DNA from: a virus
Direction: 5' to 3' (one strand)
Length of the DNA: 64,000 nucleotides
Virus record (IMG/VR): IMGVR_UViG_3300045988_143823
Under the pieces are notes generated by a model. It had not been told where the DNA came from and did not search any database. It saw only the letters and a list, made by a program, of their open reading frames with translations. The translations under genes and the position numbers were made by a program. Positions 11,701-25,300 of the stretch are shown here, one piece after another (position 1 is the first letter of the stretch; each line of letters starts with the position of its first letter).

Positions 11701-12723
11701 GCAAATCGTCCATATATATCAGTGAAAGATTTTTATTATCGCATTAAGCCAAGTAAGCAAGCAATGATTTCATTGATTAAAAGCGGTGCATTTGATGAAA
11801 TGATGGACCGTAAAGATTTAATGATTTGGTATATTTGGGAAACGTGTGATAAAAAATCTCGTTTAACATTACAAAATTTAGCAACTCTAATTCGTTATAA
11901 TTTATTACCAGAAGATAAAGATGAATATGTAATGGCAAGACGAGTTTATGAATTTAATAGATATTTAAAAGCTGTCTGTAAAGATGGTAATATCTATAAA
12001 GTTGACGAACGAGCGATTAATTTCTTAATTGAAATTGGTTGTGATGATTTAATTGGTAGTTGTTATTTATTAGATTCTAAGGCTTGGGATAAAGTATATC
12101 AAAAATATATGGATATATTCCGAACTTGGATTGCAGAAAATAAAGATGTTATTTTAAATAAATTAAATAATAAAATATTTAAAGAAGATTGGGATAAATA
12201 TGCATCTAAATCTATTTCAGCGTGGGAAATGGAAGTCTTATGTTTCTATTATCATGAGCATGAATTAGCCCATGTAAATAATAGTAAATATGGATTTGTT
12301 GATTTCTTCCATCTGCCAGAAGAGCCTATTGTTGATAAAACATTTTCTAAAGGTAATAAAACAATTACGATGTATAAATTACATAAGATTTGCGGAACTT
12401 GTATTGCTAAAAATAAAACTAAATCTACAGTTACATTACTTACCACTTCTGGAGTTGTCGAGGTTAAATTTAGAAAAGAATATTTCTCATTATTTGATAA
12501 GTAGATTTCAGAAAAACAAATTGATGGTACTAAAAAAGTAATGGAAAAAAGCTGGTTTAATCGTGGTAATATGATTGCTGTTCAAGGCATTCGTCAAGGC
12601 GATAATTTTATAGCAAAAAAGTATGCTAGTTCTGGCGGTCACCAGTTGTATAAAATTGATAAAATTTTAGATAATGGTGATATTGAATTAAAAGATGAAA
12701 GATACAATGGAGGAGCTAATTAA
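8770..12723 (+). CDS. dnaE: DNA polymerase III alpha subunit (DnaE-type, N-terminal PHP domain), 1317 codons with one in-frame TAG at 12502
   Basis: PHP motif HNHTHYS...ITDHE, PolIII alpha core motifs, and a C-terminal OB-fold region encoded after the TAG in the same frame; ends TAA. Confidence 0.9.
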
Positions 12724-13319
12724 TGTATAATATATTAGCATTAATTGGTGAAGCGGGGAGTGGTAAGGATACCATTCTCCGTAAACTAATTGATGATACA
12801 AAACATTATTATAATGGTAAATTACCTCTACATGAAATTATAAGTTATACTTCAAGACCTCCAAGAGAAAAAGAAGTGGATGGTATTAACTACCATTTTA
12901 TCTCAGCAGAAAAATTTGCTGAAATGATTTTATAGAATCAAATGTTTGAAGCTACTGTTTTTAATGAATGGTGCTATGGCACAGGAATTGAGTCAGTCAA
13001 AGAAGGCGCTATCAATGTAGGAGTATTTAATCCAGAAGGCGCAGAGATTTTATTACATGATAAACGAGTAAATTTAATTATCGTTTATATTCACGCAGAT
13101 GATAAAATTCGATTAATTAGATAGTTAAATCGAGAAGCTAACCCAGATATTGATGAAATTATTCGTCGATATAAAACAGATAAACTCGATTTTGAAGATG
13201 CTGATGATTTATGTAATTGGTTATATACAAATAATACTCCTGCGGAATTAGAATATATATATAAAGATTTAGCATTATTCCTGTCTCGGTGGCCGGAGCA
13301 TCTGGACACAACTTATTAA
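12723..13319 (+). CDS. gmk: guanylate kinase-like nucleoside monophosphate kinase, 2 in-frame TAG codons
   Basis: P-loop GEAGSGKDT and the guanylate kinase signature YTSRPPREKEVDGINYHF; three same-frame fragments joined by TAG at 12933 and 13122. Confidence 0.7.
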
Positions 13320-13333
13320 TTTATTTACAACAA

Positions 13334-13380
13334 ACACTAAATATAGTGGATATCCTAATTTTTTCCACTATATTTAGTGC
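13334..13380 (+). promoter_or_regulatory. Two NrdR-box-like palindromes (aCACTAAATATAGTGg / cCACTATATTTAGTGc), 31 bp centre to centre
   Basis: Each 16-mer matches the NrdR-box consensus acaCwAtATaTwGtgt. The tandem pair 3 helical turns apart, directly upstream of nrdD, is the canonical arrangement. Confidence 0.6.
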
Positions 13381-13391
13381 GGAGGTTATAA

Positions 13392-15662
13392 ATGTTTTAT
13401 ATAATTAAACGTAATGGCGATGTAATGCCATTTAACAAACAAAAAATTATTGATGCTATTACTAAAGCATTTATTGCTGTAGATAAAAATATTTTTGAAT
13501 CAGATAGTATTAATAGTATCGCTGATGAAGTAGAATATAGAGCGAGTCATTTCCCCGATGGAAGTGTTAATGTTGAAGACATCCAAAATTGGATTGAAGA
13601 AGCATTAATGGCATCAGAGCGTCCTGATATTGCTCGTGCTTATATTCGCTACAGATATAAAAAAGAAGTCGCTCGCACTCATTCAACTGAATTTATTGCA
13701 GCGATTGGTGAAAAAATTCGTGGAGCTAATATTCAGAATCAAAACGCTAATGTCGATGAAGCATCATTTGGTGGGCGTATGGGTGAAGCCAATAGTCTCT
13801 TAATGAAGCAATATGCTCTTGATTATATCGTATCTCCTCGCACAAAACGCAATCATGAAGAGAATATGATTTATACTCATGACCTTGACCATTATGCTGT
13901 GGGTGACCATAATTGTTTATCAATTCCATTTGACGATTTGCTTGCTAATGGATTTAATACTCGTCAAACAGATGTACGTCCAGCAGGTTCAGTAAATACA
14001 GCATTCCAATTAGTTGCAGTTATTTTCCAATTACAATCTCTTCAATAGTTTGGTGGAGTGAGTGCTACTCATCTTGATTGGACTATGGTTCCCTATGTTA
14101 AAAAAAGTTTTAGAAAACATTTTAAAGCATATTTAACTGATGTTGATGATTATAGTGAAGGTATGGCTCTACAAATTATGAGTGATTGTGAGCCTATTGA
14201 AATTTCTAATAAAGAATTGCAAAATCAATTTGGTCATCAAAATGCTTATAATTATGCTCTGAAACAGACAGAAAAAGAAATCCATCAAGCGGTTGAAGGC
14301 ATGTATCATAATTTAAATACTCTTCAAAGTCGTAGCGGTAATCAACTTCCATTTACTTCTATTAACTATGGAACTTGCACTCTTCCAGAAGGAAGAATGA
14401 TTACAAAAGCTCTATTGGAAGTGTCTCTTGAAGGATTAGGTAAATTACATAAAACTTCTATTTTTCCTTGTGGAATTTTCCAATGTATGAAGAGTGTTAA
14501 TAGAGAACCAGGTGACCCGAATTATGATTTATTTAAACTTGCGTTAAAATCTACTGCTAAAAGATTATATCCTAATTATGCGAATGTTGATTGGTCTGGA
14601 AATGCTGGCTATGATATTAATGACCCACGCACCTATTTTAGCACAATGGGATGCCGAACCGCCAATGGATATGATATTAACGGTTTAGGTCAATTAAAAG
14701 ATGGCCGTGGAAATATTTGTCCAGTAACCATTATTATGCCTACATTAGCTATGATAGCAAAAACTAAGGTAAATAATCTTCTTGTTTTTAAAGTATTAGA
14801 TGAAGATAGCGAAGTAAAAATTAATGAATATATAAGAACATTTATGGATTTACTTGATGAAAAAATCCATGAAGCAAAAGATCAATTAATTGAGCGTTTT
14901 GATTGGATTTGTTCTCAAAGCCCGGCTTCAGCCAAATTCATGTATGAAAATAATTTGATGGCAGGCTATATTCCAGAAGAAGGAATTAGAAGCGCGCTTA
15001 AACATGGAACACTGGCTCTAGGTCAGTTAGGACTAGCAGAAACTCTACAAATTCTTATTGGCGTTGACCACACTACTCCAGAGGGAATGGAATTAGCAAA
15101 AAGAATTGAATCCTTATTTAAACAGCGTTGCGCGGAATTTAAGGAACAATATAAATTAAACTTCGGTGTTTATTATACTCCCGCGGAAAATCTCTGCTAT
15201 ACTGCAATGAAGAAATTTAAGGCTAAGTATGGCGAAATTCCTAATGTAAGTGATAAAGAATTTTTTACTAATTCAATTCATGTTCCTGTATGGAAAGAAA
15301 TGAGTCCATTTGACAAAATTGATATTGAGAGTCAATTGACTGGATATAGTAATGCCGGTTGTATTACTTATGTTGAGTTAGATTCTACAGTATCTAATAA
15401 TTTAACTGCGCTTGAACAAATTGTAAATTATGCTATGGATAAAGATATTCCTTATTTTGCTGTAAATGTTCCTAATGACACTTGTCTCAAATGCGGATAT
15501 ACTGGTGAATTCAATGATAAATGTCCTGAATGTGGTAGTAAAGAAATCCAGCAACTTCGTCGTGTGACCGGCTATTTAACTGGTAATTATAAAACCGCGT
15601 TTAATTTAGGAAAGCAAGATGAAGTTGAACATCGAGTCAAACACGTAGGAGTGATGGAATGA
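13392..15662 (+). CDS. nrdD: anaerobic ribonucleoside-triphosphate reductase NrdD (class III RNR), one in-frame TAG at 14046
   Basis: N-terminal ATP-cone, C-terminal zinc-ribbon CLKCGY...CPECG, and a glycyl-radical-like RVTGY C-terminus; ORFs 13392 and 14058 are in the same frame. Confidence 0.9.
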
Positions 15663-16153
15663 GATACGCAGGAATAATTAAAAATGATATTGCTGGAGCT
15701 CCTGGAGTGTGTGTCTCATTTTTCACTCAAGGATGTGCCAGACATTGTGAGGGCTGTTAGAATCCAGAAACTTGGGATTTTAACGGCGGAAAAGAATTTA
15801 CCACAGATACATTAGATGATATAGTAAATGCTCTTACTGCTAATGGTATACATCGTGATTTTTGTATTATGGGTGGAGAGCCCCTTGCTCCAGAAAATCT
15901 ATTCCTTGTAAATTTAATTATTGAACATATTAAAGAAGCTCTTCCCAAAACAAAAATTTTTTTATGGACTGGATATACAATGGATGAATTGGCTATGCGC
16001 AGAGAGCCACATCTAAAAAATATTGTTGATAATATTGATTGTATTATTGATGGCCCATTTAAAATTGAACAACGAGATATTACCTTACCTATGCGTGGCT
16101 CACGCAATCAAAAAGTTTATTACGCTCCATTTGACTTATGGGAAAAAATATGA
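15659..16153 (+). CDS. nrdG: anaerobic RNR activating protein NrdG (radical SAM), one in-frame TAG directly after the CxxxCxxC motif
   Basis: ATG overlaps the nrdD TGA; motif GCARHCEGC-TAG-NPETW matches the NrdG signature GC..C.GC[HYQ]N..TW. Confidence 0.85.
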
Positions 16154-16159
16154 TATAAT
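16131..16159 (+). promoter_or_regulatory. SigA-like promoter TTGACT-N17-TATAAT (extended -10 TGATATAAT) inside the 3' end of nrdG
   Basis: Consensus elements about 25 nt upstream of the 16181 start. Confidence 0.45.
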
Positions 16160-16180
16160 ATAGAAAATGGAGGATAATAA

Positions 16181-16726
16181 ATGACTAATGGATTAAAATG
16201 TATTGGTGTAAAAACCATTGATGAATTAAAATATTCTCCTCAAGTATTTGAAGATGGGGCAATAGCATATACTGATGATAAAAAAGTATATTGTTATGTA
16301 AATAATAAATGGGAAGAAGTATCAGACTATGGTACTGTTGATAAAATTGATGATACTAAAGCTAATTTAAACTTAAATTTATATGATTTAAATAAATCTT
16401 TAGTGCGTTCATTACCCGATCCCGATACAGATACATTAGGAGATTATCAACAAAAAATTAATAGTTATCATCGAAAAATAAATAATAATTATTATCTTAT
16501 GTTATGTAGAGATTATAATTATTATACTGTATTTCATTATGAACCAACAATTATTGCTGATTCATTTGGTAAATCTGTATTAGATTGTCTCGCTGATGTT
16601 GGCAAGATTAAAACATTAGACTGGAATGAAGAGCAAGGCGCAATTGAAATTTGGATGTCCATTGATGATAATATTTATATGTTCTATTTATTTGGATATG
16701 ATGCAGGGGTGGTGGATTTTTCGTGA
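16181..16726 (+). CDS. hypothetical protein
   Basis: ORF track entry with RBS GGAGGA; no recognisable motif. Confidence 0.4.
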   Translation: MTNGLKCIGVKTIDELKYSPQVFEDGAIAYTDDKKVYCYVNNKWEEVSDYGTVDKIDDTKANLNLNLYDLNKSLVRSLPDPDTDTLGDYQQKINSYHRKINNNYYLMLCRDYNYYTVFHYEPTIIADSFGKSVLDCLADVGKIKTLDWNEEQGAIEIWMSIDDNIYMFYLFGYDAGVVDFS

Positions 16727-17001
16727 ATCGTTTATTTTGTAGTTTACAACCATTTGATATGGTTCAACAAATTTATGCAGTAGATAATAATGGCAATATC
16801 ATAGATACATTTAGTTGTACGTTTGACGATATGATTGAAGCTGTTCCATCCTATTGCAAAAATAATAATATTAATGTAATTCATTTGTTAGGTATTACTG
16901 ATTACACATTTGAAATGAAACAAAGAATGATGGAATTTTGTAAAACTAATTATGCATATGAAAATTTAAATCTAATTATTGATTGTGGAGAAGGAAAATA
17001 A
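16723..17001 (+). CDS. hypothetical protein
   Basis: ORF track entry with a GTGA overlap on the previous gene. Confidence 0.35.
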   Translation: MNRLFCSLQPFDMVQQIYAVDNNGNIIDTFSCTFDDMIEAVPSYCKNNNINVIHLLGITDYTFEMKQRMMEFCKTNYAYENLNLIIDCGEGK

Positions 17002-17253
17002 TGGAATACCTAGTAAGTACAACTGAAGTATATAGAGTTGATGATGAAGCCAGTGCCACTTCTCTAATTGAGAAGGCTAAGCATGACAGTATGTATGAAT
17101 TGGCTAAATATAGTTCTGTAAAGAAGGAAAAGAAATAGAAGGGTGAGATTATTGATGAATGGTATCAAGTATCCTTGACCAAAAAATTCAATGATGAAAA
17201 AGACCCTATTTCTATCGTTAATATTAAATATGGGGAGCAAATTGATTTCTAAT
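17002..17253 (+). CDS. hypothetical protein, one in-frame TAG
   Basis: ATG adjacent to the previous TAA; the frame continues through a TAG to a TAA overlapping the dut start. Confidence 0.3.
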
Positions 17254-17809
17254 GATTAAATTTGAAAAAGTTTCTAAATACCCTGATGCAGTAATTCCCA
17301 CTCGTAGTACAGTGAATTCCGCAGGATACGATTTTACTGTAGCTGAAGATATTGTAATCCCATCTTATTCTAATCAAATGAGCGAAATGGTCCGATGGGG
17401 TAGAATAGGCCATACTTATACTCTAACTGAGATGGCAAATTTTACAAAAGAATTAAAAATAAAACCTACTCTTGTTCCTACTGGAATTAAATGTAGTCTT
17501 GGCCGCGATACATACCTTGAATTGTCTGTCCGTAGTTCTACTCCACTAAAGCATTGGATTATTCTGGCTAATGGAGTAGGAATTATTGATGCTGATTATT
17601 ATAACAATCCTGACAATGAAGGACATATTTATTTTCAAGTAATTAATCTTACTCCATATGATATTCAACTTAAAAAGGGAGATAAAATTGGTCAAGGTAT
17701 TATCAAGCCATATCTAATGACAATTGATGATAATGCTTTTGGTCAACGACTTGGTGGATTTGGCTCTACTACAAGTAGTCCAGAAGCCAATCAAGCTAGT
17801 CTAACTTAA
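17252..17809 (+). CDS. dut: dUTP diphosphatase
   Basis: dUTPase motifs SAGYDF, GVGIIDADYY and C-terminal RLGGFGSTTS. Confidence 0.85.
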   Translation: MIKFEKVSKYPDAVIPTRSTVNSAGYDFTVAEDIVIPSYSNQMSEMVRWGRIGHTYTLTEMANFTKELKIKPTLVPTGIKCSLGRDTYLELSVRSSTPLKHWIILANGVGIIDADYYNNPDNEGHIYFQVINLTPYDIQLKKGDKIGQGIIKPYLMTIDDNAFGQRLGGFGSTTSSPEANQASLT

Positions 17810-18318
17810 TGAATATATTATTTTTAGATTTATCATCTAAATCTACTGGATGGTGCTTATCTTCTGAAAAAGGGGAAATGCTCAAATGGGGATTAATTCC
17901 TATTTCAGGAGATAATACTCTTGAACGTATTAAACAAATGACTGATAAAATTGTAGATTTGATAAAAGAAAATAGTGTTGGTAAAATAGTCGCAGAAGAT
18001 GTGCATCCAGAAGCATATGGAAATAAATCTCATACTGAACGTGTTTTAATGTGGCTTCAAGGGTCTGTGGCATTAGGTGCTCATAGTATTGATACTAGCA
18101 TTGATTACGATTTTATTGAATTTATGAATTCATCATCATGGCGAAAATTACTTGGAATGAAACTTGGTCCAAAAGTAAAACGAGTAGCACTTAAACAAGC
18201 AGATATTGAGTTTGTAAAAAATAAATATGGTATAGTGGCTAATGATGATGTATGCGATGCTATATGTTTATACACTGCATATTTCACTAAATCTCAAGAG
18301 GAGTATAATTGGGAATAA
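17809..18318 (+). CDS. RuvC-family Holliday junction resolvase (phage type)
   Basis: N-terminal ILFLDLSSKSTGW resembles the RuvC GIDPG motif; C-terminal DDVCDAICL carries acidic catalytic residues. Confidence 0.6.
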   Translation: MNILFLDLSSKSTGWCLSSEKGEMLKWGLIPISGDNTLERIKQMTDKIVDLIKENSVGKIVAEDVHPEAYGNKSHTERVLMWLQGSVALGAHSIDTSIDYDFIEFMNSSSWRKLLGMKLGPKVKRVALKQADIEFVKNKYGIVANDDVCDAICLYTAYFTKSQEEYNWE

Positions 18319-18396
18319 GGCCAAAATACAAAAAAAAATAACTCCTTATTTGTAAGAACAAATGGATAGAGATTCTTACGGAAAGGAGTTTTTTAA

Positions 18397-18891
18397 ATGC
18401 TTGATTTTATCGCCAAATATTGGCTTGAGTTTTTATTTGGTATAATCGCATTAGGACTTACGGGTTTAGCTAAATATTTTTATAATTTATATAAAAAAGA
18501 AAAATAGCGTTTAGAAGATGAAGCTCATGAAAAAATTATTAAAGAATTAAAAAGTAAAATTAGTGATGAGCATAAAACTACAGCTAATTTATTGCAAACT
18601 GAGCGAAATTTATCTAAACAAGAAAATGATAGTTTAAAACAAGAAATTTATAATGTAAATGATAAAATAGATGTTGTAAGAGATGGCATTTTATCTATTT
18701 AGGGAAAACAATTTAAAAATGATTGTCGAAAATTATTAAATCCAGATCATGAAATCACTCTCGATGAATTTGAAGAAATTGAGAGCGACCATGAGACATA
18801 TAATAAAATGAATGGAAATCACCCGGGAGACAAACTATTCCAAATGGTAGAATAGAAATTTAGAAATAGTTTATCTACTTATAAAGAATAA
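18397..18891 (+). CDS. membrane/coiled-coil protein (one N-terminal TM helix), 3 in-frame TAG codons
   Basis: RBS AAGGAG; hydrophobic segment WLEFLFGIIALGLTGLA then charged coiled-coil region. Confidence 0.35.
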
Positions 18892-18896
18892 AAAAT

Positions 18897-18929
18897 AGCC
18901 GAGAATTAAATAAAACTTAATTCTCGGCT
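18897..18929. terminator. bidirectional hairpin terminator (agccgagaattaa...ttaattctcggct)
   Basis: 13-bp perfect stem between convergent genes. Confidence 0.6.
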
Positions 18930-18938
18930 TATAATAAT

Positions 18939-19460
18939 TTATTCTTCTATTTTATAATAATATTTTAAAAATTCAGGGCTAAAATCGTAAGCTAACCCTT
19001 CTGTAATCAATCCTTCAATCTCACAAATTTCTGCGGAAACATTTTTAATTAATTTTTTAGCTATTTTTAACTCATGGAATGCCATATTTTCTTTGAAGTG
19101 CATTGCGGCTTCTTTATAGATGCTCAATGTTTCCTTCTCCCAATCGAGCCAATGGTAGAGACTCTCTTTACTTAATGATTTAATAGCTCCCTTGGTAACA
19201 TCCATAGATGTTTTGCTATACCATTCTGCTGGAATTAATGTTGTATTTTCCATTTCAAATTGTGGAATTGAAAAATATATTTTTGCATAACAATCTTTAA
19301 TACATTGAAGAGTTTCTAATTCTTCCTAAGATTGATGGCAATGGATTTCTTTTAAACCATCTAAACATAAAAAACGGTAATAGTCAGTCATATTTTCATG
19401 ATAAACTACTCCCTCTGTTTGGCGTTTAATTATAGAAATCATATATTCTTGACAATCCAT
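18939..19460 (-). CDS. hypothetical protein, about 173 aa, one in-frame TAG
   Basis: ORF 18939..19253 extends upstream through a TAG at 19326 to an ATG at 19458-60. Confidence 0.35.
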
Positions 19461-19465
19461 TCAAC

Positions 19466-19888
19466 TCACCCGACCTTTATAATATCGACTTCAACAGTTG
19501 AATAGGTTGTTGCACCAGTGTTAACAAATGTCAAATTGGCATTGTTATTTATAGAACGACATGATGGTAGAACTTTTACTAATGTAGTAAAATGAACTGT
19601 ACCAGTGTCAACTAGACTTGCAATTGCGGTTGGAATGGCAGTTCCATTATTGTAAGCCTAGACTGAAAATGTGTTGCCAGAGCCAGCATCACCAGTTGCA
19701 GTTACTGCAACTAAATAAGTGCCGGTTCGAGTTAAACTAATCGCAGGACTGCCTGCGATATGAGAAATACCACAACCACTTTGGAATATATTATTCTGGA
19801 GTGGAATAGGATTACCCGTAGCAAGAGTCTAGCTAGTTGTAGAGGTAGTCGTTAGAATTGGATTAGAGCAATTTGAACAAGTACTCAT
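19466..19888 (-). CDS. small Cys-rich protein with a BclA/C1q-like (TNF-fold) C-terminal domain, 2 in-frame TAG codons
   Basis: RBS AAAGGAG; MSTCSNCSNP... then TGTYLVAVTATG...YNNGTAIP...STVEVDIIKVG, pattern-wise similar to exosporium BclA C-terminal domains. Confidence 0.35.
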
Positions 19889-19917
19889 TCGTATGAACTC
19901 CTTTCTTAGTTAGAATA

Positions 19918-19939
19918 GAGGGAGGATATTTCCTCCCTC
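19918..19939. terminator. hairpin terminator GAGGGAGGA-tattt-CCTCCCTC
   Basis: GC-rich stem immediately after the TAA of gene 19946..20623. Confidence 0.6.
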
Positions 19940-19945
19940 AATAAA

Positions 19946-20623
19946 TTAATTACCGCAAGCTCCGCATCCACTAAATGCGCTATAAATATTACTTGCAGTA
20001 TAAGGACTACAAGTAATATATGCAGGAGTAGGATATGGGCGTAAGACATTTAATAAATCAGAAGTCTGATTCATGTTCTGAATTGTTAAGTTGGCAGACT
20101 GTAATTCAGTACGCAGACCTTCAATCTTATCGGTAGTTAAATAATCAAGAATACGCTGAACACCAGCATTTTGATTATTTAAAATATCACGAGTATTTAA
20201 GTTGCTAGTATTTACAATATCGCAAATATTTTTAGCATTCTCATATCTCACAGCGTCAATATTGCGATTAGTTGTGCAACAACATTCTTGCTGGGCGAAA
20301 CGATTATCGTTTAACCCTTTCATTACTTCATATTGGATATTACCCCAACGGTTAGTAGCATCACGTTCAAATGCGCTTACTTCGGTAAGGATCATATCTT
20401 GATTGCGGAACATATCTTGACGACCTAAGCCATCGGCCAATTCAGCGCGAGTTAAAGCGCCTTGAGTAGAACCGCCACCAAATAATCCGCCGCCCCCCCA
20501 AGCCAGTAGGAAGAATAAGAAGAATACCCAAGTCCAAGTGCCGCCAAAACTATTATTGTTATTGTCGCCTTGAGTCATTGCCATGATATCAGCAGGAGAT
20601 AATCCGTTTTCAGTGAGAGCCAT
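19946..20623 (-). CDS. membrane protein with a Gly-rich TM segment and a Cys-rich C-terminus (CCC...GCGACGN); no TAG
   Basis: ORF track entry; RBS GAAAGGAATG; one hydrophobic helix WTWVFFLFFLLAW. Confidence 0.45.
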   Translation of the reverse strand: MALTENGLSPADIMAMTQGDNNNNSFGGTWTWVFFLFFLLAWGGGGLFGGGSTQGALTRAELADGLGRQDMFRNQDMILTEVSAFERDATNRWGNIQYEVMKGLNDNRFAQQECCCTTNRNIDAVRYENAKNICDIVNTSNLNTRDILNNQNAGVQRILDYLTTDKIEGLRTELQSANLTIQNMNQTSDLLNVLRPYPTPAYITCSPYTASNIYSAFSGCGACGN

Positions 20624-20787
20624 AATTTTTACATTCCTTTCTAATTATATTGAGATTGGAAGATAGAATAAGCTTCATCAAAATTGATTCCCTTTTCTCG
20701 GCAGATATTGCGTGCAATTTGAATAATCTCTGCTTCTGATTTTCCTTAAGCCATTCTTTGTGCCTATTGGAATAAGGGATTAGAATT

Positions 20788-21220
20788 TAAATTCTGTAGC
20801 ATCGCCATTGGGTTCATCATTTGGTTTGGATTCATCTGCGTTAGCTCCTTTCAGTTTATTAATTTCATTAACTAGAATTGTGACTGTTTTCTCGAATTCT
20901 TCTTTGCTTACATAAGAAGCGTCAGATGGTGTTGCTTCTGGCTATGTTGTTGGAGGAGGAGTAGCTTTTAATTCATACATATTTAATGAAGCTGTTCCAT
21001 CTAAATTGATTTGTTTTGTGTAGATACGTCGATTTGCTAGGTCTGGAAAATAGAAAACCGACCCGTCAAAATCAATACCTGTTGCTCGGACTTCTTCAAG
21101 ACTAGAGACCGGCCGACCTTTTAATCCTTGAAGTTGTTGAGTATATTGGTTAGTAGGCATATAACGATTCAGGTAGGGATTTTGAGATTGAGGATAATAG
21201 TTATAACTGTTTGGATACAT
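20788..21220 (-). CDS. Q/N/Y/P-rich hypothetical protein (spore-coat-like composition), one in-frame TAG
   Basis: ORF 20942..21220 continues through a TAG to a TAA at 20788. Confidence 0.35.
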
Positions 21221-21243
21221 TTTCTAGAAAATACCTCGCTTTC

Positions 21244-21296
21244 CAAATTTTTTACAGCGGAGTAAAAAATTTTACAATGGTGTAAAAAATTTTACT
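21244..21296. promoter_or_regulatory. Operator-like repeats: GTAAAAAATTTTAC x2 (21262-75, 21282-95) plus an inverted partial copy (21244-58)
   Basis: Near-palindromic 14-mers spaced 20 bp apart in a divergent intergenic region. Confidence 0.4.
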
Positions 21297-21408
21297 AAGC
21301 TCCTCCATTATATAATGTAAATTAATGGACCAATTAATGATTTTTGCCTGGTTATTTTCGAAAAAACTATCTAGAATATTTTTTATATTAAATAGGAATT
21401 GACATTTA

Positions 21409-21437
21409 TTGACTTTTCCAAAAATTTATTTTATAAT
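21409..21437 (+). promoter_or_regulatory. Consensus SigA promoter TTGACT-N17-TATAAT (a second TTGACA lies 10 bp upstream)
   Basis: Perfect hexamers with a 17-nt spacer, about 30 nt upstream of the 21466 ATG. Confidence 0.55.
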
Positions 21438-21465
21438 ACAGAAAAATGGAAGAGGAGGAAAATTT

Positions 21466-21879
21466 ATGGATTGGCTAGAAATGCTACAACAAATTTTCAA
21501 TATTCTTATTGTCCCAGTACTAACAGCTGTCTCTTTATTCTTGGTTCGTTTTATTCAGTCTAAAACCAATGAATTGAAGGCTAAAACCAATGATGAAACT
21601 CTTCAAAAATATATGGACATGCTTAATAAAACAATTACTGATTGTGTATTAGCAACAAATCAAACATATGTTGAAAGTCTGAAGGGGCAAAATGCATTTG
21701 ATAAAAATGCTCAACTGGAAGCATTCAAAAAGACCTATAACGCTGTAATGGGTATTTTGACTGAAGATGCTAAAGAGTATCTTGAGGAAGCCCTCGGTGA
21801 TTTGAGTGGATATATTACCACTAAAATCGAGTCTGAGGTTAATACAAATAAGGCTCAACCTAAAAAGGCCGAAGAATAA
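21466..21879 (+). CDS. holin-like membrane protein (N-terminal TM then hydrophilic tail; LL-H-holin-like architecture)
   Basis: RBS GGAAGAGGAGG; start at the ATG at 21466 rather than the upstream track start; TM ILIVPVLTAVSLFLV. Confidence 0.35.
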   Translation: MDWLEMLQQIFNILIVPVLTAVSLFLVRFIQSKTNELKAKTNDETLQKYMDMLNKTITDCVLATNQTYVESLKGQNAFDKNAQLEAFKKTYNAVMGILTEDAKEYLEEALGDLSGYITTKIESEVNTNKAQPKKAEE

Positions 21880-22254
21880 TTGATCATCTGTTTGTGCGGG
21901 AGCACTAAATTCAAAGAGTCCTTCGAGAAATTAGGAGCAATCCTATCTCTCGAAGGACATATTGTTTTATCTCCTAAAGTATTTGCTCATGCAGATAATA
22001 TTGTATTATCATCGGACACAGAAACTAGATTATTAAATTCTAGTAAAAATAAAATTAATATGGCTGATGCCGTTTATTTTATTACTGGAGAAAATGAATA
22101 TATTGGAACAACTGGCTATCAAGAAATTTGTTATGCTAGAAAATTAAATAAACCTATTACCTATTTTTCTAATAAAAAAATTGATGAATATGGTTATAAT
22201 GTTATCCGATAGCATGTGAATAACGTGATGGAGCAAACAAAAAATGGCGATTAA
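21880..22254 (+). CDS. nucleoside 2-deoxyribosyltransferase-like protein; TTG start; one in-frame TAG at 22210
   Basis: Motifs LCGSTKF and GTTGYQEICYARKLNKPI resemble the NDT family; if TAG is sense, the frame ends at a TAA inside the terminator stem. Confidence 0.3.
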
Positions 22255-22290
22255 GAAAAAATTTGTACTATTTTCTTAATCGCCATTTTT
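22241..22290. terminator. bidirectional hairpin terminator (aatggcgattaagaaaa...ttttcttaatcgccatt)
   Basis: 17-bp stem flanked by A- and T-runs between convergent genes. Confidence 0.65.
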
Positions 22291-22301
22291 TTATTTATAA
22301 A

Positions 22302-25300
22302 TTAAAATACTTTAATCCATACACGCCCATTAACTTTAACTTTTCCGGTCCCCCATTCTTCGTAATCAGGAACTGCTGAAATTGTACCAATCGCACAATA
22401 ACCTTTATTTTTATATTCTTCATCAGTCATAATAGAAACTGTTCCATTAGGACCAGAACATACTGGACGCCCAATATTCTTTTTAAATTCTTCATGAGAT
22501 TCATATGGATAAGCAAGAACACGTCCACTTACCGCTATTGGAGTTTTTGCCTATTCAGTTTCACCAATGGCAAAACCAAATGTATCAGATGTGATATTCG
22601 CGCCTGGCATCATGCGCTCAGTTGAAGTAATAAGAGTATCGTCACCCACTTCAATCACGCATTTACCTGATTCAATAGTATCTCCTTCACGGAATTCAGC
22701 ATAGTCATTCCATACTGCACCCCAAAGTTTATTTCCTCGTAAAACTCCAGTTCGAGTATTAATAGTCATTGTCATGCCAGCATTAGTTGAAGAACATCCA
22801 TCAACAAAACCAATACTCTACCAAGATTTAAAAATTAAATTGGCTTTTCCAGTAGTCCCTAAAATACTACCATCTGCATCTCCATTTCCAACATACATTC
22901 CATTATTTCCACCGGCTAATCTATGACAAATCATTGCTCCAGTATTAGTAGCAGTTGATGTAGTGGCGGGCAAAGAACAATTAATACTTCCATTCATAGT
23001 TCCGCCAGATAATTTTAAATAATTAGTATCAATCTATAAACCATTTATATCTCCCAAAGTTTTACTAGCACTATCAGCATTACCATGAAAATAAACATTA
23101 GTACCATCACTTTGAACTATCCACTATGTTTTAATACAATCCCATAATCCATATAACTATGCGCCACCATTATCGCGAGATAATTCGATATAACCAGTTG
23201 AGCCATTATTTACTCGGAACCCCTATCCAGCCTTATCAACAGCCAATTGACCAGTCATTGTATCTCCGGTTTTTTTGACATAATTAGAATCATGATTGTG
23301 TGAACTTGCTGCTGCTCCAATATCTGATAAAACTTGAGCTGCTGTGCGCTTATAAATCCAACCATAACCATCAATAGTAGCAAAATCTCCAGCTTTATTT
23401 CCAGCATTAGTAGTTTTTAACCACGTGCCTTCAATATAACCATTAATGCCAATACTAGAAGAACCTACTTTTAATCCAGTAGTATTAATTTGAGCAACTT
23501 CAGATACATTAGCATAAGCGCCATTATTTCCACCTGAATAGGTTTTAAATGAAATTTTATTTCCTTCATAATTTGTAGTTGTAGTAGCAGGTAAATAAAT
23601 TTCATTCACATTCATTTGATTGAAATGACCACGACTAGCTTTAAATGCGCAACCAATATTCTCCGCTGTATTTTCAATGTCTGGGCAATAATCAGGATGA
23701 GTAAATTTAGCTTCTCCTTGATTTTCAATACTACCATTTGTTTTTAATAATCCGGTCATTGTATCGCCAGATTTTTTTACATACAAACTATCATGGTTAT
23801 GATTTCCAGCTGCTACTCCTAATTCATTTAAAGTCCAACTTACATTAGAACTACCATCTACAGTTTTTTTAGCTGTTCCAATAGTAAATGTTCTTGGTGT
23901 TTTCCATTTATCAGCTGTGTCAGCATTACCTTTAAATTGAGTAGCTTTAACATTACCATTTACTTCTAATTTCTCTGTTGGCTAAGTAATTCCAATACCT
24001 ACATTACCAGAGCCATTTGCATTAGCATTTAATACTAATGGCTTAGTCTTATCACCATTTCCGTCGCCAACAGTAGAGACATATAAATCAACATAATCAG
24101 TACCATTAGGAACATTTACAGTGCTTGCGTTAAACTAAGCACTTCCACTATTAGTTTTTAAATCAAAACCTTTAGAGAAATGGGTTTTATCATTTAATGT
24201 TTTTTCTCCAGCAAACGTTTGAGTTCCAGTAGATACAACACCGGATTGACTAGCTGAAGCATCTCTTACTGTTTTTTTAGTTGCAGTAATTTTACCCTAA
24301 GTATCCTATGATACTGTATCAATAAATGAAATATCTTCATTAGACGCCGCAGGACTAGGTACTGCTGTTTGAATCTTTTTATATACCTTATCATGATTAT
24401 GATTGCCAAGCGCAACTGAAGTCGCTCCAGTACCAGTTGGTATAGTAAATTTTAATTCTCCAGCATTATTAACTGATTTAGCTGTATATGTTAATCCACT
24501 CCAACTACCAGAAGTATGATGGCTACTCTATTCCCAATTACCATTTTCAGCAAGGAATCTTTTAGTTGTATTAGTAGTATCAAATGTCGGGCCTTTAGTA
24601 ATTTTTCCGTCGGCATCTGAGTATACAATAGAATTAGTTTGTACTACACCAGCCTCATTTGTTAAATAACCATCACTACTGATATTGCCGTGAATATGAG
24701 GTTTTAATGCATATGAAGTAGAACTTCCTAAATCAACCCAATTTCCATCTATATCATATAAATATTCTTTTTTATCTCCAGTGCAAATAACAACATTACC
24801 AGCTACAGCTGTGACAGTAGTTCCATCAATAAGAGTTACTTGAGAACTGGTTGGCTTTGTAGCTACACGTCCAATATATACTAATGCACCAGAAATTTTT
24901 AAATCTGCCGCGTTAACATCGATTGTTCTAACCGCGGAGCCATCATAACTGCCTTTTGGAGTACCACCTACACTAATACTTAAGGCATGCTCAACTTTTC
25001 TTGCAATAGTAGCAGTCTTTGCATTACCATTAATATCTCTATCTAATGTTTGCCCAGTGACAATGGGTATTCCGTTTTTAAAATAAACTGGAGCGTTTTC
25101 GCTACCAGCATTGGTATTTAATTTATCAGCGCTTGTTGCAGGACCTCCCGCAGAAGAGGAACCTGCATAATCATGAGTATGGCCACTATTTGATTTACCG
25201 CTTAATAATGTATCAGTTTCTGTAATAGTATATACAGGTAATGGAATATCTTTATCTGTAGTCTAATTCGCAGTAAATGTTTCATTTACCTTGACTGGCA

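What the first reader, a model, noticed from the sequence alone, without database searches (positions are those of the whole stretch)
13320..13392. Host-type NrdR operator pair in front of the phage nrdDG operon
Two 16-bp near-palindromes matching the NrdR-box consensus (acaCwAtATaTwGtgt) lie exactly 31 bp apart and overlap the likely promoter of nrdD. This implies the phage anaerobic RNR genes are repressed by the host dNTP-sensing repressor NrdR. The presence of nrdDG itself points to an anaerobic or facultative Firmicutes host.
Basis: partly seen in the sequence, partly recalled or inferred. Interest (0 to 1): 0.6.

Follow-up and report, generated by a model that had tools for sequence, protein, structure and literature searches.

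The report
NrdR operator before phage nrdDG
A gut phage carries, directly in front of its anaerobic ribonucleotide reductase genes, a textbook binding site for the bacterial dNTP-sensing repressor NrdR, so the phage probably lets its host's own sensor decide when these genes are switched on.

Summary
Box 1 (13334-13349, ACACTAAATATAGTGG) and box 2 (13365-13380, CCACTATATTTAGTGC) match the NrdR consensus with 2 and 3 mismatches. All six strongly conserved positions are kept. The spacer is 15 bp (31 bp start to start). The pair lies in the 72-bp gap between a guanylate-kinase gene and nrdD-nrdG.

A single box is not above chance in this 30% GC window, but the pair, its position and its conservation are:
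- The pair scores better than the operators of all three E. coli RNR operons.
- 51 of 74 related phage loci keep a pair upstream of nrdD.
- Spacers are 14-17 bp, and the boxes are conserved while the spacer sequence is not.

No NrdR gene was found in the window or in related viral contigs, so a host NrdR is the likely binder. Binding, the promoter and the host are all untested. An RNA-hairpin reading is mostly explained by two palindromes lying side by side.

A Bacillota host is plausible, but that does not follow from nrdDG alone.

Two side findings:
- The phage reads TAG as glutamine.
- In-phase NrdR-type operators occur in at least 119 other viral contigs. Where the flanking genes could be named, they were often portal and terminase genes.

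The parts
12723..13319 (+). Guanylate-kinase-like gene (gmk) with two in-frame TAG codons. Its stop codon TAA at 13317-13319 marks the left edge of the intergenic region.
   Evidence: Pfam Guanylate_kin on the first fragment. A continuous 199-codon frame appears when TAG is read as sense. The same gene sits upstream of nrdD in relatives.
13320..13391 (.). 72-bp intergenic region between gmk and nrdD. The operator fills 47 of its 72 bases.
13334..13349 (.). NrdR box 1, ACACTAAATATAGTGG. It has 2 mismatches to acaCwAtATaTwGtgt and keeps all six strongly conserved positions.
   Evidence: Conserved in relatives.
13350..13364 (.). 15-bp spacer, atatcctaatttttt. Its length is conserved in relatives but its sequence is not.
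   Evidence: Spacer lengths of 26 distinct related operators: 15 (14), 16 (8), 14 (3), 17 (1). Mean 0.39 bits per column against 1.0-1.1 in the boxes.
13365..13380 (.). NrdR box 2, CCACTATATTTAGTGC, with 3 mismatches. It abuts the Shine-Dalgarno sequence and ends 11 nt before the ATG.
13347..13374 (+). Only sigma-70-like promoter candidate in the gap. The -35 TGGATA lies on the right edge of box 1, followed by a 16-nt spacer and a -10 TATATT inside box 2. This is a weak call.
   Evidence: 9 of 12 matches. The region holds 13 such matches against 11.2 expected, so this is not evidence on its own. The layout resembles L. monocytogenes nrdDG.
13381..13385 (+). Shine-Dalgarno GGAGG, 6 nt before the nrdD start codon.
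   Evidence: GGAGG follows box 2 in most relatives.
13392..15662 (+). nrdD, the class III (anaerobic) ribonucleotide reductase with an N-terminal ATP-cone. It is 756 codons long, with one in-frame TAG at 14046-14048 read as Gln.
   Evidence: Pfam ATP-cone, NRDD and Gly_radical. Translation. Thirteen of 14 homologues have Q at the TAG position.
15659..16153 (+). nrdG, the activating radical-SAM enzyme. Its start overlaps the nrdD stop (ATGA). It has one in-frame TAG at 15758-15760.
   Evidence: Pfam Fer4_12. Translations. Eight of 12 homologues have Q at the TAG position.

Best explanation
The 47-bp element at 13334-13380 is a canonical two-box NrdR operator placed directly 5' of the phage nrdD-nrdG operon.

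Proposed mechanism (inferred): the host's NrdR, a Zn-ribbon plus ATP-cone repressor, binds as a tetramer when loaded with ATP and dATP. It contacts both boxes on one face of the helix, since 31 bp is three turns. Bound there, it occupies nearly the whole gap between gmk and nrdD. It would block either a promoter lying inside the operator or read-through from the upstream replication genes.

When phage DNA synthesis lowers dATP relative to ATP, NrdR switches to a form that does not bind DNA. nrdDG is then derepressed and dNTP supply rises. The phage would thus borrow the host's dNTP feedback loop, on top of the allosteric ATP-cone in its own NrdD.

Shown here: the sequence match, spacing, position, conservation, specificity to this locus, and the lack of a detectable phage nrdR.

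Inferred: binding by host NrdR, repression, the nucleotide response, and the position of the promoter.
For: 1. Both boxes match the consensus (2 and 3 mismatches), with the six strongly conserved positions intact and a 15-bp spacer.

2. The pair scores 5 summed mismatches. The E. coli nrdAB, nrdHIEF and nrdDG pairs found by the same scan score 8, 8 and 6.

3. Such a pair arises in 2 of 300 shuffles of the window. No other pair with a summed mismatch of 9 or less exists in the 64 kb.

4. The downstream genes are nrdD (ATP-cone, NRDD, Gly_radical) and nrdG.

5. Among 74 non-identical related phage loci (NrdD 69-98% identical), 51 have a pair within 120 nt upstream of nrdD. Only 6 pairs lie in the other roughly 588 kb.

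6. Spacers are 14-17 bp, mostly 15-16. This matches the measured optimum for NrdR of Actinomycetia, Bacilli and Gammaproteobacteria (PMC12051234).

7. Column conservation in the phage boxes reproduces the consensus capitals: C4 25/26, A6 25/26, A8 26/26, T9 23/26, T11 25/26, G13 21/26.

8. The boxes carry 1.0-1.1 bits per column, the spacer 0.39.

9. The layout mirrors L. monocytogenes nrdDG. There the boxes overlap the RNA polymerase site, the spacer is 16 bp, and box 2 ends 13 bp before the ATG. Here box 2 ends 11 bp before it.

10. No NrdR homologue was found in the window. Only 18 of 50,697 phage records hold one, and the seven inspected are all flagged UNVERIFIED. Only 10 IMG/VR contigs hold one, all near contig ends and none from this phage family.

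11. The host NrdR regulon is strongly derepressed during lytic phage infection of S. pneumoniae (PMC6755750). That is the behaviour the model needs.
Against: - No binding or expression data exist, and the host is unknown, so whether it has nrdR is untested.
- A single box match is within chance expectation.
- No convincing promoter was found in the gap.
- The closest isolated phages, Thomasclavelia TR-TP1 and TR-TP2, have no boxes; TR-TP2 nrdD overlaps its upstream gene.
- The closest chromosomal nrdD genes, in Erysipelotrichaceae, also lack boxes. Two of them carry a cobalamin riboswitch instead. The operator is therefore not a universal feature of this NrdD clade.
- The two boxes are mirror images of each other. 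They could form a -24.6 kcal/mol hairpin if transcribed.
- Some relatives keep only one full box plus a half-site. By the E. coli data cited in PMC12051234, that should bind NrdR weakly.
Confidence: 0.75

Rival explanations
1. The element acts as RNA. The two arms form a 16-bp stem with a 13-nt loop just 5' of the Shine-Dalgarno sequence. It would serve as a 5' stabiliser, a processing site (for example for RNase III) or a translation modulator for nrdD mRNA. On this reading the likeness to NrdR boxes is incidental.
For: The inverted repeat is a perfect 16 nt. The fold has an MFE of -24.6 kcal/mol, z = -6.1, with 0 of 200 shuffles as stable. Mirror similarity between the boxes exceeds direct similarity in most lineages, 11.1 against 9.1 of 16. 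In L006 both boxes are flipped together. The covariation score is slightly above column shuffles (9 of 500).
Against: Across 17 lineages 73.9% of cells pair, but 69.4% is already expected from column composition alone. Two copies of one palindrome explain most of the pairing.

The stem sequence is conserved at exactly the NrdR-critical positions, rather than drifting with compensation.

Lineages L037, L042 and L051 cannot form the stem. They still keep a good box 1 and a half-site 31 bp downstream.

The loop is constrained in length to helical phase. No Rfam family matches. No U-tract follows the stem. If the promoter lies inside the operator, box 1 is not transcribed.
Confidence: 0.08
2. The boxes are bound by another regulator, either phage-encoded or a different host factor, that recognises a similar AT-rich palindrome rather than by NrdR.
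For: The host and most of the phage genome are unseen. Many window ORFs have no assigned function. The mirror arrangement of the boxes differs from two bacterial-contig operators compared by eye, which are direct repeats (L113, L134).
Against: The motif occurs only once in 64 kb, and only upstream of nrdD in relatives. It is therefore not a general phage operator. Its conserved columns and spacing are those of NrdR. NrdR is reported to be specific for RNR operons (PMC12051234).
Confidence: 0.07
3. NrdR does bind, but the main role of the site is as a decoy. Replicating phage genomes would multiply the operator, titrate the few NrdR molecules, and so derepress the host's own RNR operons as well as nrdDG.
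For: In-phase NrdR-type operators occur in at least 119 viral contigs. Where flanking genes could be named they were often not RNR genes. The host NrdR regulon rises during lytic infection.
Against: In this phage family the operator is tied to one position, abutting the nrdD ribosome-binding site. That points to cis control. There is one site per genome at the strict threshold. dNTP depletion alone explains the host derepression.
Confidence: 0.05
4. The boxes are a non-functional remnant carried along when nrdDG was captured from a bacterium, or a chance match in AT-rich DNA.
For: Single matches are within chance. Phage RNR genes are often of bacterial origin (PMC3019208).
Against: Pairs are rare in shuffles. 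The boxes are kept while the spacer and flanks diverge, across relatives with about 70% NrdD identity. The nearest chromosomal homologues do not carry the boxes.
Confidence: 0.05

Closest known systems
NrdR operator of Listeria monocytogenes nrdDG (Bacillota)
   Same: Two 16-bp NrdR boxes lie upstream of a class III RNR operon. The boxes overlap the RNA polymerase binding site, the spacer is 16 bp, and box 2 ends 13 bp before the start codon (PMC12051234). In the window the spacer is 15 bp and box 2 ends 11 bp before the ATG.
   Different: The Listeria operator is chromosomal and experimentally bound by its NrdR. The phage element is on a virus, binding is untested, and its two boxes are exact mirror images of each other.
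E. coli NrdR operators of nrdAB, nrdHIEF and nrdDG
   Same: Paired boxes lie 31-32 bp apart in front of RNR operons, and the same scan recovers them. Repression by NrdR is established (Torrents et al. 2007, as cited in PMC12051234).
   Different: The E. coli boxes are further from the consensus (summed mismatches 6-8 against 5). They lie 46-161 nt from the start codon rather than abutting the ribosome-binding site.
Host transcription-factor sites on phage genes (LexA boxes on prophage genes, Pho boxes and NtcA sites on cyanophage metabolic genes); from general knowledge, not tested here
   Same: A phage places a host regulator's binding site in front of its own gene, so that expression follows a host physiological signal.
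   Different: The regulator and the signal differ (dATP/ATP balance). I found no paper in the searchable library that describes NrdR boxes in phage genomes.
Cobalamin-riboswitch control of nrdD in Erysipelotrichaceae chromosomes
   Same: It controls the closest chromosomal homologues of this NrdD (65-67% identity), at the same position 5' of nrdD.
   Different: The mechanism is an RNA riboswitch (Rfam RF00174, 95-99 bits). No NrdR boxes are present at those loci, and no riboswitch is present in the window.

Membership tests
NrdR operator (pair of NrdR boxes) | A 16-bp palindromic box matching acaCwAtATaTwGtgt, with the strongly conserved C4, A6, A8, T9, T11 and G13 | tested here: met
   Box 1 has 2 mismatches and box 2 has 3, and all six capital positions are intact. 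The pair is closer to the consensus than the three E. coli operators.
NrdR operator (pair of NrdR boxes) | Two boxes separated by about 15-16 bp (14-17 tolerated), so that box centres are three helical turns apart | tested here: met
   The spacer is 15 bp, 31 bp start to start. The range is taken from PMC12051234. Relatives have spacers of 14-17 bp.
NrdR operator (pair of NrdR boxes) | Located in the promoter or 5' region of a ribonucleotide reductase operon | tested here: met
   The operator lies 11 nt upstream of the nrdD start, and nrdG follows with an ATGA overlap. The promoter itself was not located.
NrdR operator (pair of NrdR boxes) | Boxes conserved at orthologous loci while the spacer and flanks diverge | tested here: met
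   51 of 74 related loci have a pair upstream of nrdD, against 6 pairs in the other roughly 588 kb. Boxes carry 1.0-1.1 bits per column against 0.39 in the spacer.
NrdR operator (pair of NrdR boxes) | A cognate NrdR protein (Zn-ribbon plus ATP-cone) is present in the cell | not testable with these tools
   The host is unknown. No NrdR was found in the window or in related viral contigs. Verified phage genomes essentially lack it. The protein would have to come from the host.
NrdR operator (pair of NrdR boxes) | ATP/dATP-dependent binding of NrdR and repression of the downstream operon | not testable with these tools
   This needs EMSA or MST and reporter or RNA measurements.
Intrinsic terminator or structured cis-regulatory RNA | A stable stem-loop followed by a U-tract, or a match to a described RNA family | tested here: not met
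   The stem is stable. It is followed by CGGAGG rather than a U-run, and no terminator was called there. No Rfam match reached significance.
Intrinsic terminator or structured cis-regulatory RNA | Base pairs maintained by compensatory change beyond what column composition gives | tested here: inconclusive
   73.9% of cells pair against 69.4% in shuffles (7 of 500). Eight pairs change on both sides against 6.7 expected (122 of 500).
Stop-codon-recoded phage (TAG read as Gln) | In-frame TAG codons in conserved genes, aligned with glutamine in homologues; ORFs lengthen when TAG is read as sense | tested here: met
   Total residues in ORFs of at least 100 aa rise from 14,013 to 22,571 with TAG as sense. 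The TAG in nrdD aligns with Q in 13 of 14 homologues, and the TAG in nrdG with Q in 8 of 12.
Stop-codon-recoded phage (TAG read as Gln) | A suppressor tRNA that reads TAG is encoded by the phage | tested here: not met
   No tRNA gene lies in the 64-kb window. One could lie elsewhere in the genome, since the longest related contigs reach about 200 kb.

The most novel reading that the evidence does not exclude
This operator may be one instance of a widespread and, as far as I could find, undescribed habit: phages of many host groups wire the host's NrdR, a sensor of the dATP/ATP balance, into their own programmes.

An exact scan of IMG/VR for two near-consensus boxes at NrdR spacing hit at least 119 contigs with GC from 0.29 to 0.69. 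The same boxes at off-phase spacing hit 9. Where the flanking genes could be named they were often portal and terminase genes, not RNR genes.

If these sites work, NrdR release during DNA replication could serve as a timer for packaging and late genes. Alternatively, the sites could titrate NrdR.
Probability: 0.35. Interest if true: 0.7.

Novelty: new member of a known kind. Interest (0 to 1): 0.45.

Why it matters
If host NrdR really binds here, this phage does not express its dNTP-making enzyme constitutively. It couples expression to the cell's dNTP pool through a host repressor, in addition to the allosteric ATP-cone of NrdD itself.

That gives a concrete, testable example of a virus borrowing a host metabolic feedback loop.

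It also offers a host-range marker: phages with NrdR boxes should infect hosts that have nrdR.

Together with the side observation of NrdR-type operators beside packaging genes in many other viral contigs, it suggests that NrdR could be a general link between nucleotide supply and phage gene timing.

Tried and rejected
- Megablast of the region against 50,697 phage records found nothing. Only protein-level search found relatives.
- The single-box consensus match was rejected as evidence on its own, because 3.3 matches are expected by chance.
- The sigma-70 promoter scan gave no call above background. I do not claim a promoter.
- Rfam gave no significant RNA family in 12700-14000.
- The hairpin rival was tested by pair counting and found to be mostly a by-product of the palindromes.
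- A phage-encoded NrdR was looked for three ways without success.
- I expected the nearest chromosomal nrdD genes (Erysipelotrichaceae) and the nearest isolated phages (Thomasclavelia) to share the boxes. They do not. The idea that the operator came along with the gene from that lineage was dropped.
- Four literature searches for NrdR boxes in phages found no report.
- PHROGs annotation of minus-strand ORFs gave only families of unknown function.
- A tRNA-like stretch seen next to the operator in L205 was not confirmed by ARAGORN.
- Passing DNA references with in-frame TAG to the family scanner fails. Sequences had to be pasted with TAG read as Q.
Full report
**What is in the sequence**

The stretch 13320-13391 is the 72-bp gap between a guanylate-kinase-like gene and nrdD. 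The gmk stop TAA is at 13317-13319 and the nrdD ATG at 13392.

Within the gap:
- box 1 is ACACTAAATATAGTGG (13334-13349);
- a 15-bp spacer follows;
- box 2 is CCACTATATTTAGTGC (13365-13380);
- GGAGG follows at once (13381-13385), and the ATG lies six bases later.

Against the NrdR consensus acaCwAtATaTwGtgt, the boxes have 2 and 3 mismatches. Both keep C4, A6, A8, T9, T11 and G13. They are the only matches with at most 3 mismatches in the 64-kb window. The two boxes are also exact mirror images of each other, a 16-nt perfect inverted repeat.

**The genes downstream**

The downstream ORFs carry ATP-cone, NRDD and Gly_radical domains (nrdD). The next ORF carries a 4Fe-4S radical-SAM domain (nrdG).

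Under the standard code both genes look broken. Each is interrupted by an in-frame TAG. Reading TAG as sense restores a 756-codon nrdD and a 164-codon nrdG whose start overlaps the nrdD stop (ATGA).

Across the window, reading TAG as sense raises the total in ORFs of at least 100 aa from 14,013 to 22,571 residues. The TAG positions align with glutamine in homologues.

The window is therefore part of a TAG-to-Gln recoded phage of 30% GC. Upstream lie replication genes: DnaB-type helicase, a Toprim-domain (primase-like) protein, a RecJ-like protein, a RecD-like helicase and DnaE.

**Is it more than chance?**

A single box is not. Shuffled windows give 3.3 such matches. The pair is. Two matches 30-33 bp apart occurred in 2 of 300 dinucleotide-preserving shuffles of the whole window. 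Here the pair lies in the roughly 70 bp in front of an RNR gene.

As a positive control, the same scan finds paired boxes 31-32 bp apart upstream of E. coli nrdAB, nrdHIEF and nrdDG. Their summed mismatches are 8, 8 and 6. The phage pair scores 5.

**Conservation**

A scan of IMG/VR with NrdD found 485 relatives, and 80 loci were fetched. Five are 96-98% identical. The rest are 69-76% identical at the protein level.

- Most carry two boxes at about -60 and -30 relative to the start codon, with box 2 abutting GGAGG.
- Of 74 non-identical loci (597 kb), 51 have a pair with summed mismatches of 9 or less within 120 nt upstream of nrdD. Only 6 such pairs occur in the remaining roughly 588 kb.
- In 26 distinct operators the spacer is 15 bp (14), 16 (8), 14 (3) or 17 (1). 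The best-conserved columns are exactly the capitals of the NrdR consensus.
- The boxes carry 1.0-1.1 bits per column, against 0.39 in the spacer and about 0.5 in the flanks.

This is a clean phylogenetic footprint.

Some lineages (L037, L042, L051) keep a near-perfect box 1. In them the right half of box 2 is replaced by the ribosome-binding site, and the left half-site still lies 31 bp downstream. A minority have no boxes, usually where nrdD abuts or overlaps the upstream gene.

**Fit to what is known about NrdR**

PMC12051234 reports the following:
- NrdR proteins from three phyla bind box pairs tightly at 14-17 bp spacers. They bind about two orders of magnitude less well off-phase, with a second optimum near 24-27 bp.
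- The DNA-binding form is a tetramer loaded with ATP and dATP. ATP alone prevents binding.
- In L. monocytogenes nrdDG the boxes overlap the RNA polymerase site, are 16 bp apart, and end 13 bp before the ATG.

The phage layout is almost the same as the Listeria one.

PMC6755750 reports strong induction of the host NrdR regulon during lytic infection of S. pneumoniae. That is the behaviour expected if phage replication releases NrdR from DNA.

**Whose NrdR?**

- tblastn with E. coli NrdR finds nothing in the window or in the related loci.
- Only 18 of 50,697 phage records contain an NrdR homologue. The seven I inspected are all flagged UNVERIFIED.
- A profile scan of 2.9 million viral contigs for the invariant Y[VIL]RFAS[VI]Y motif gave 10 loci. 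All lie near contig ends, and none comes from this phage family, whose longest contigs reach about 200 kb.

A host protein is therefore the reasonable binder. This step is inference.

**Host**

nrdDG alone does not indicate Firmicutes. Most phage records with NrdD are from Proteobacteria. Other evidence does favour Bacillota:
- The closest isolated phages infect Thomasclavelia ramosa (NrdD 69.7% identical).
- Chromosomal Erysipelotrichaceae NrdD is 65-67% identical.
- 27 of 36 ORFs have a Shine-Dalgarno-like motif.
- A contig of the isolate Ruminococcus sp. YE282 carries a canonical operator at the head of an operon containing gmk, nrdD and nrdG.

TR-TP2 nrdD overlaps its upstream gene, and the Erysipelotrichaceae chromosomes lack the boxes. 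Two of the chromosomal loci have a cobalamin riboswitch in front of nrdD instead. The operator was therefore not simply inherited with the gene from that lineage. The actual host remains open.

**Rivals**

*RNA hairpin.* The hairpin is thermodynamically real: -24.6 kcal/mol, z = -6. But over 17 lineages 73.9% of cells pair against 69.4% expected from column composition alone. Compensatory pairs are not in excess. No U-tract follows the stem, and no Rfam family matches. Lineages that cannot form the stem still keep box 1.

The modest excess of mirror symmetry is unexplained. It could reflect the two-fold symmetry of the bound tetramer, or a secondary RNA role.

*A general phage operator.* This is unlikely, because the motif occurs only here.

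*Promoter.* The only sigma-70-like candidate has its -35 on the edge of box 1 and its -10 inside box 2. It is no better than background. Promoter overlap is plausible but not shown.

**Side finding**

Chance expectation, from my own rough estimate of the collection's size, is far below one. The same boxes with N{21,24} gave 9 contigs.

Only four of the hits belong to the window's phage family. GC of the contigs ranges from 0.29 to 0.69.

Most of the 74 flanking ORFs examined matched no named family. Among those that did, portal proteins, small and large terminase subunits, a scaffold protein, a tail-fibre protein and ParB-like proteins recur. NrdD appears only for this family. In L176 the operator lies 101 nt upstream of a terS-like gene followed by a 519-aa ORF.

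I found no paper describing this.

**Verdict**

This is a new instance of a known kind of element, a canonical NrdR operator on an RNR operon, carried by a recoded gut phage. Binding, repression, the promoter position and the host all still need experiments.

Noticed in passing
whole window; e.g. TAG at 14046-14048 (nrdD), 15758-15760 (nrdG), two in gmk 12723-13319; minus-strand ORFs 22302-63998: The phage reads TAG as a sense codon, most likely Gln. Total ORF length rises from 14,013 to 22,571 aa. The TAG in nrdD aligns with Q in 13 of 14 homologues. Plus-strand replication genes hold 0-5 TAGs each. The giant minus-strand ORFs, up to 2,729 codons, hold 15-41 each. No tRNA gene lies in the window.
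   Followed up: partly
IMG/VR loci L167-L285 (e.g. L205 1523-1569, L176 7803-7847, L178 2938-2984, L229 1889-1934): Near-consensus NrdR box pairs at NrdR spacing occur in at least 119 viral contigs of very different GC. Off-phase spacing gives only 9. Most flanking ORFs matched no named family, but those that did were often portal, terminase small and large subunit and other head genes rather than RNR genes. This may mean host NrdR is used to time packaging and late genes, or that the sites are decoys. I found no report of it.
   Followed up: partly
L108 3735-3910 and L111 3733-3911 (Erysipelotrichaceae MAG contigs): The closest chromosomal nrdD homologues are preceded by a cobalamin riboswitch (RF00174, 95-99 bits). 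They have no NrdR boxes. The same gene clade thus uses a different control solution.
   Followed up: partly
window 13335-13350 / 13364-13379; related loci: The two boxes are mirror images rather than direct repeats: TAAATATAG in box 1 and TATATTTAG in box 2. This holds in most relatives. In L006 both boxes are flipped together, which keeps the mirror relation. Two operators on bacterial-genome contigs that I compared by eye (L113, L134) are closer to direct repeats. No explanation so far.
   Followed up: partly
L037, L042-L053 group, L051/L061 (upstream of nrdD at about -50): In several lineages box 2 is reduced to its left half-site (AYACAAG), exactly 31 bp after box 1. Its right half has become the Shine-Dalgarno sequence.
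   Followed up: no
L082 (Thomasclavelia phage TR-TP2) 2995-6118; also L126-L132, L138-L142 with matches of about 3 kb: nrdD is split by an insertion carrying an HNH homing endonuclease in the Thomasclavelia phages. Judging by match length, the same applies in several metagenomic relatives. The window's nrdD has no such insertion.
   Followed up: no
L134 1546-1592 (Ruminococcus sp. YE282 contig NZ_FMUV01000013.1): A canonical operator (CCACAATATATAGTGT, 15 bp, ACACAATATATAGTAT) lies about 2.4 kb upstream of nrdD. It heads a tightly packed plus-strand operon that also holds a gmk-like gene and nrdG. This may be a phage or prophage in a cultured Bacillota strain, and so a lead to a host.
   Followed up: partly
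Genome-contig loci L083-L149: Phage-like nrdD loci sit in MAGs labelled Bacteroides, Prevotella, Treponema, Elusimicrobia, Methanobrevibacter and Mollicutes. One Mollicutes bin contributes two different loci (L083, L084). Several carry the phage operator (L083, L084, L121, L135). These look like phage contigs mis-binned into bacterial and archaeal MAGs.
   Followed up: no
INPHARED hits H31-H48: The seven records with an NrdR homologue that I inspected are all flagged UNVERIFIED or UNVERIFIED_ORG, and several are short fragments. They are probably host DNA.
   Followed up: yes
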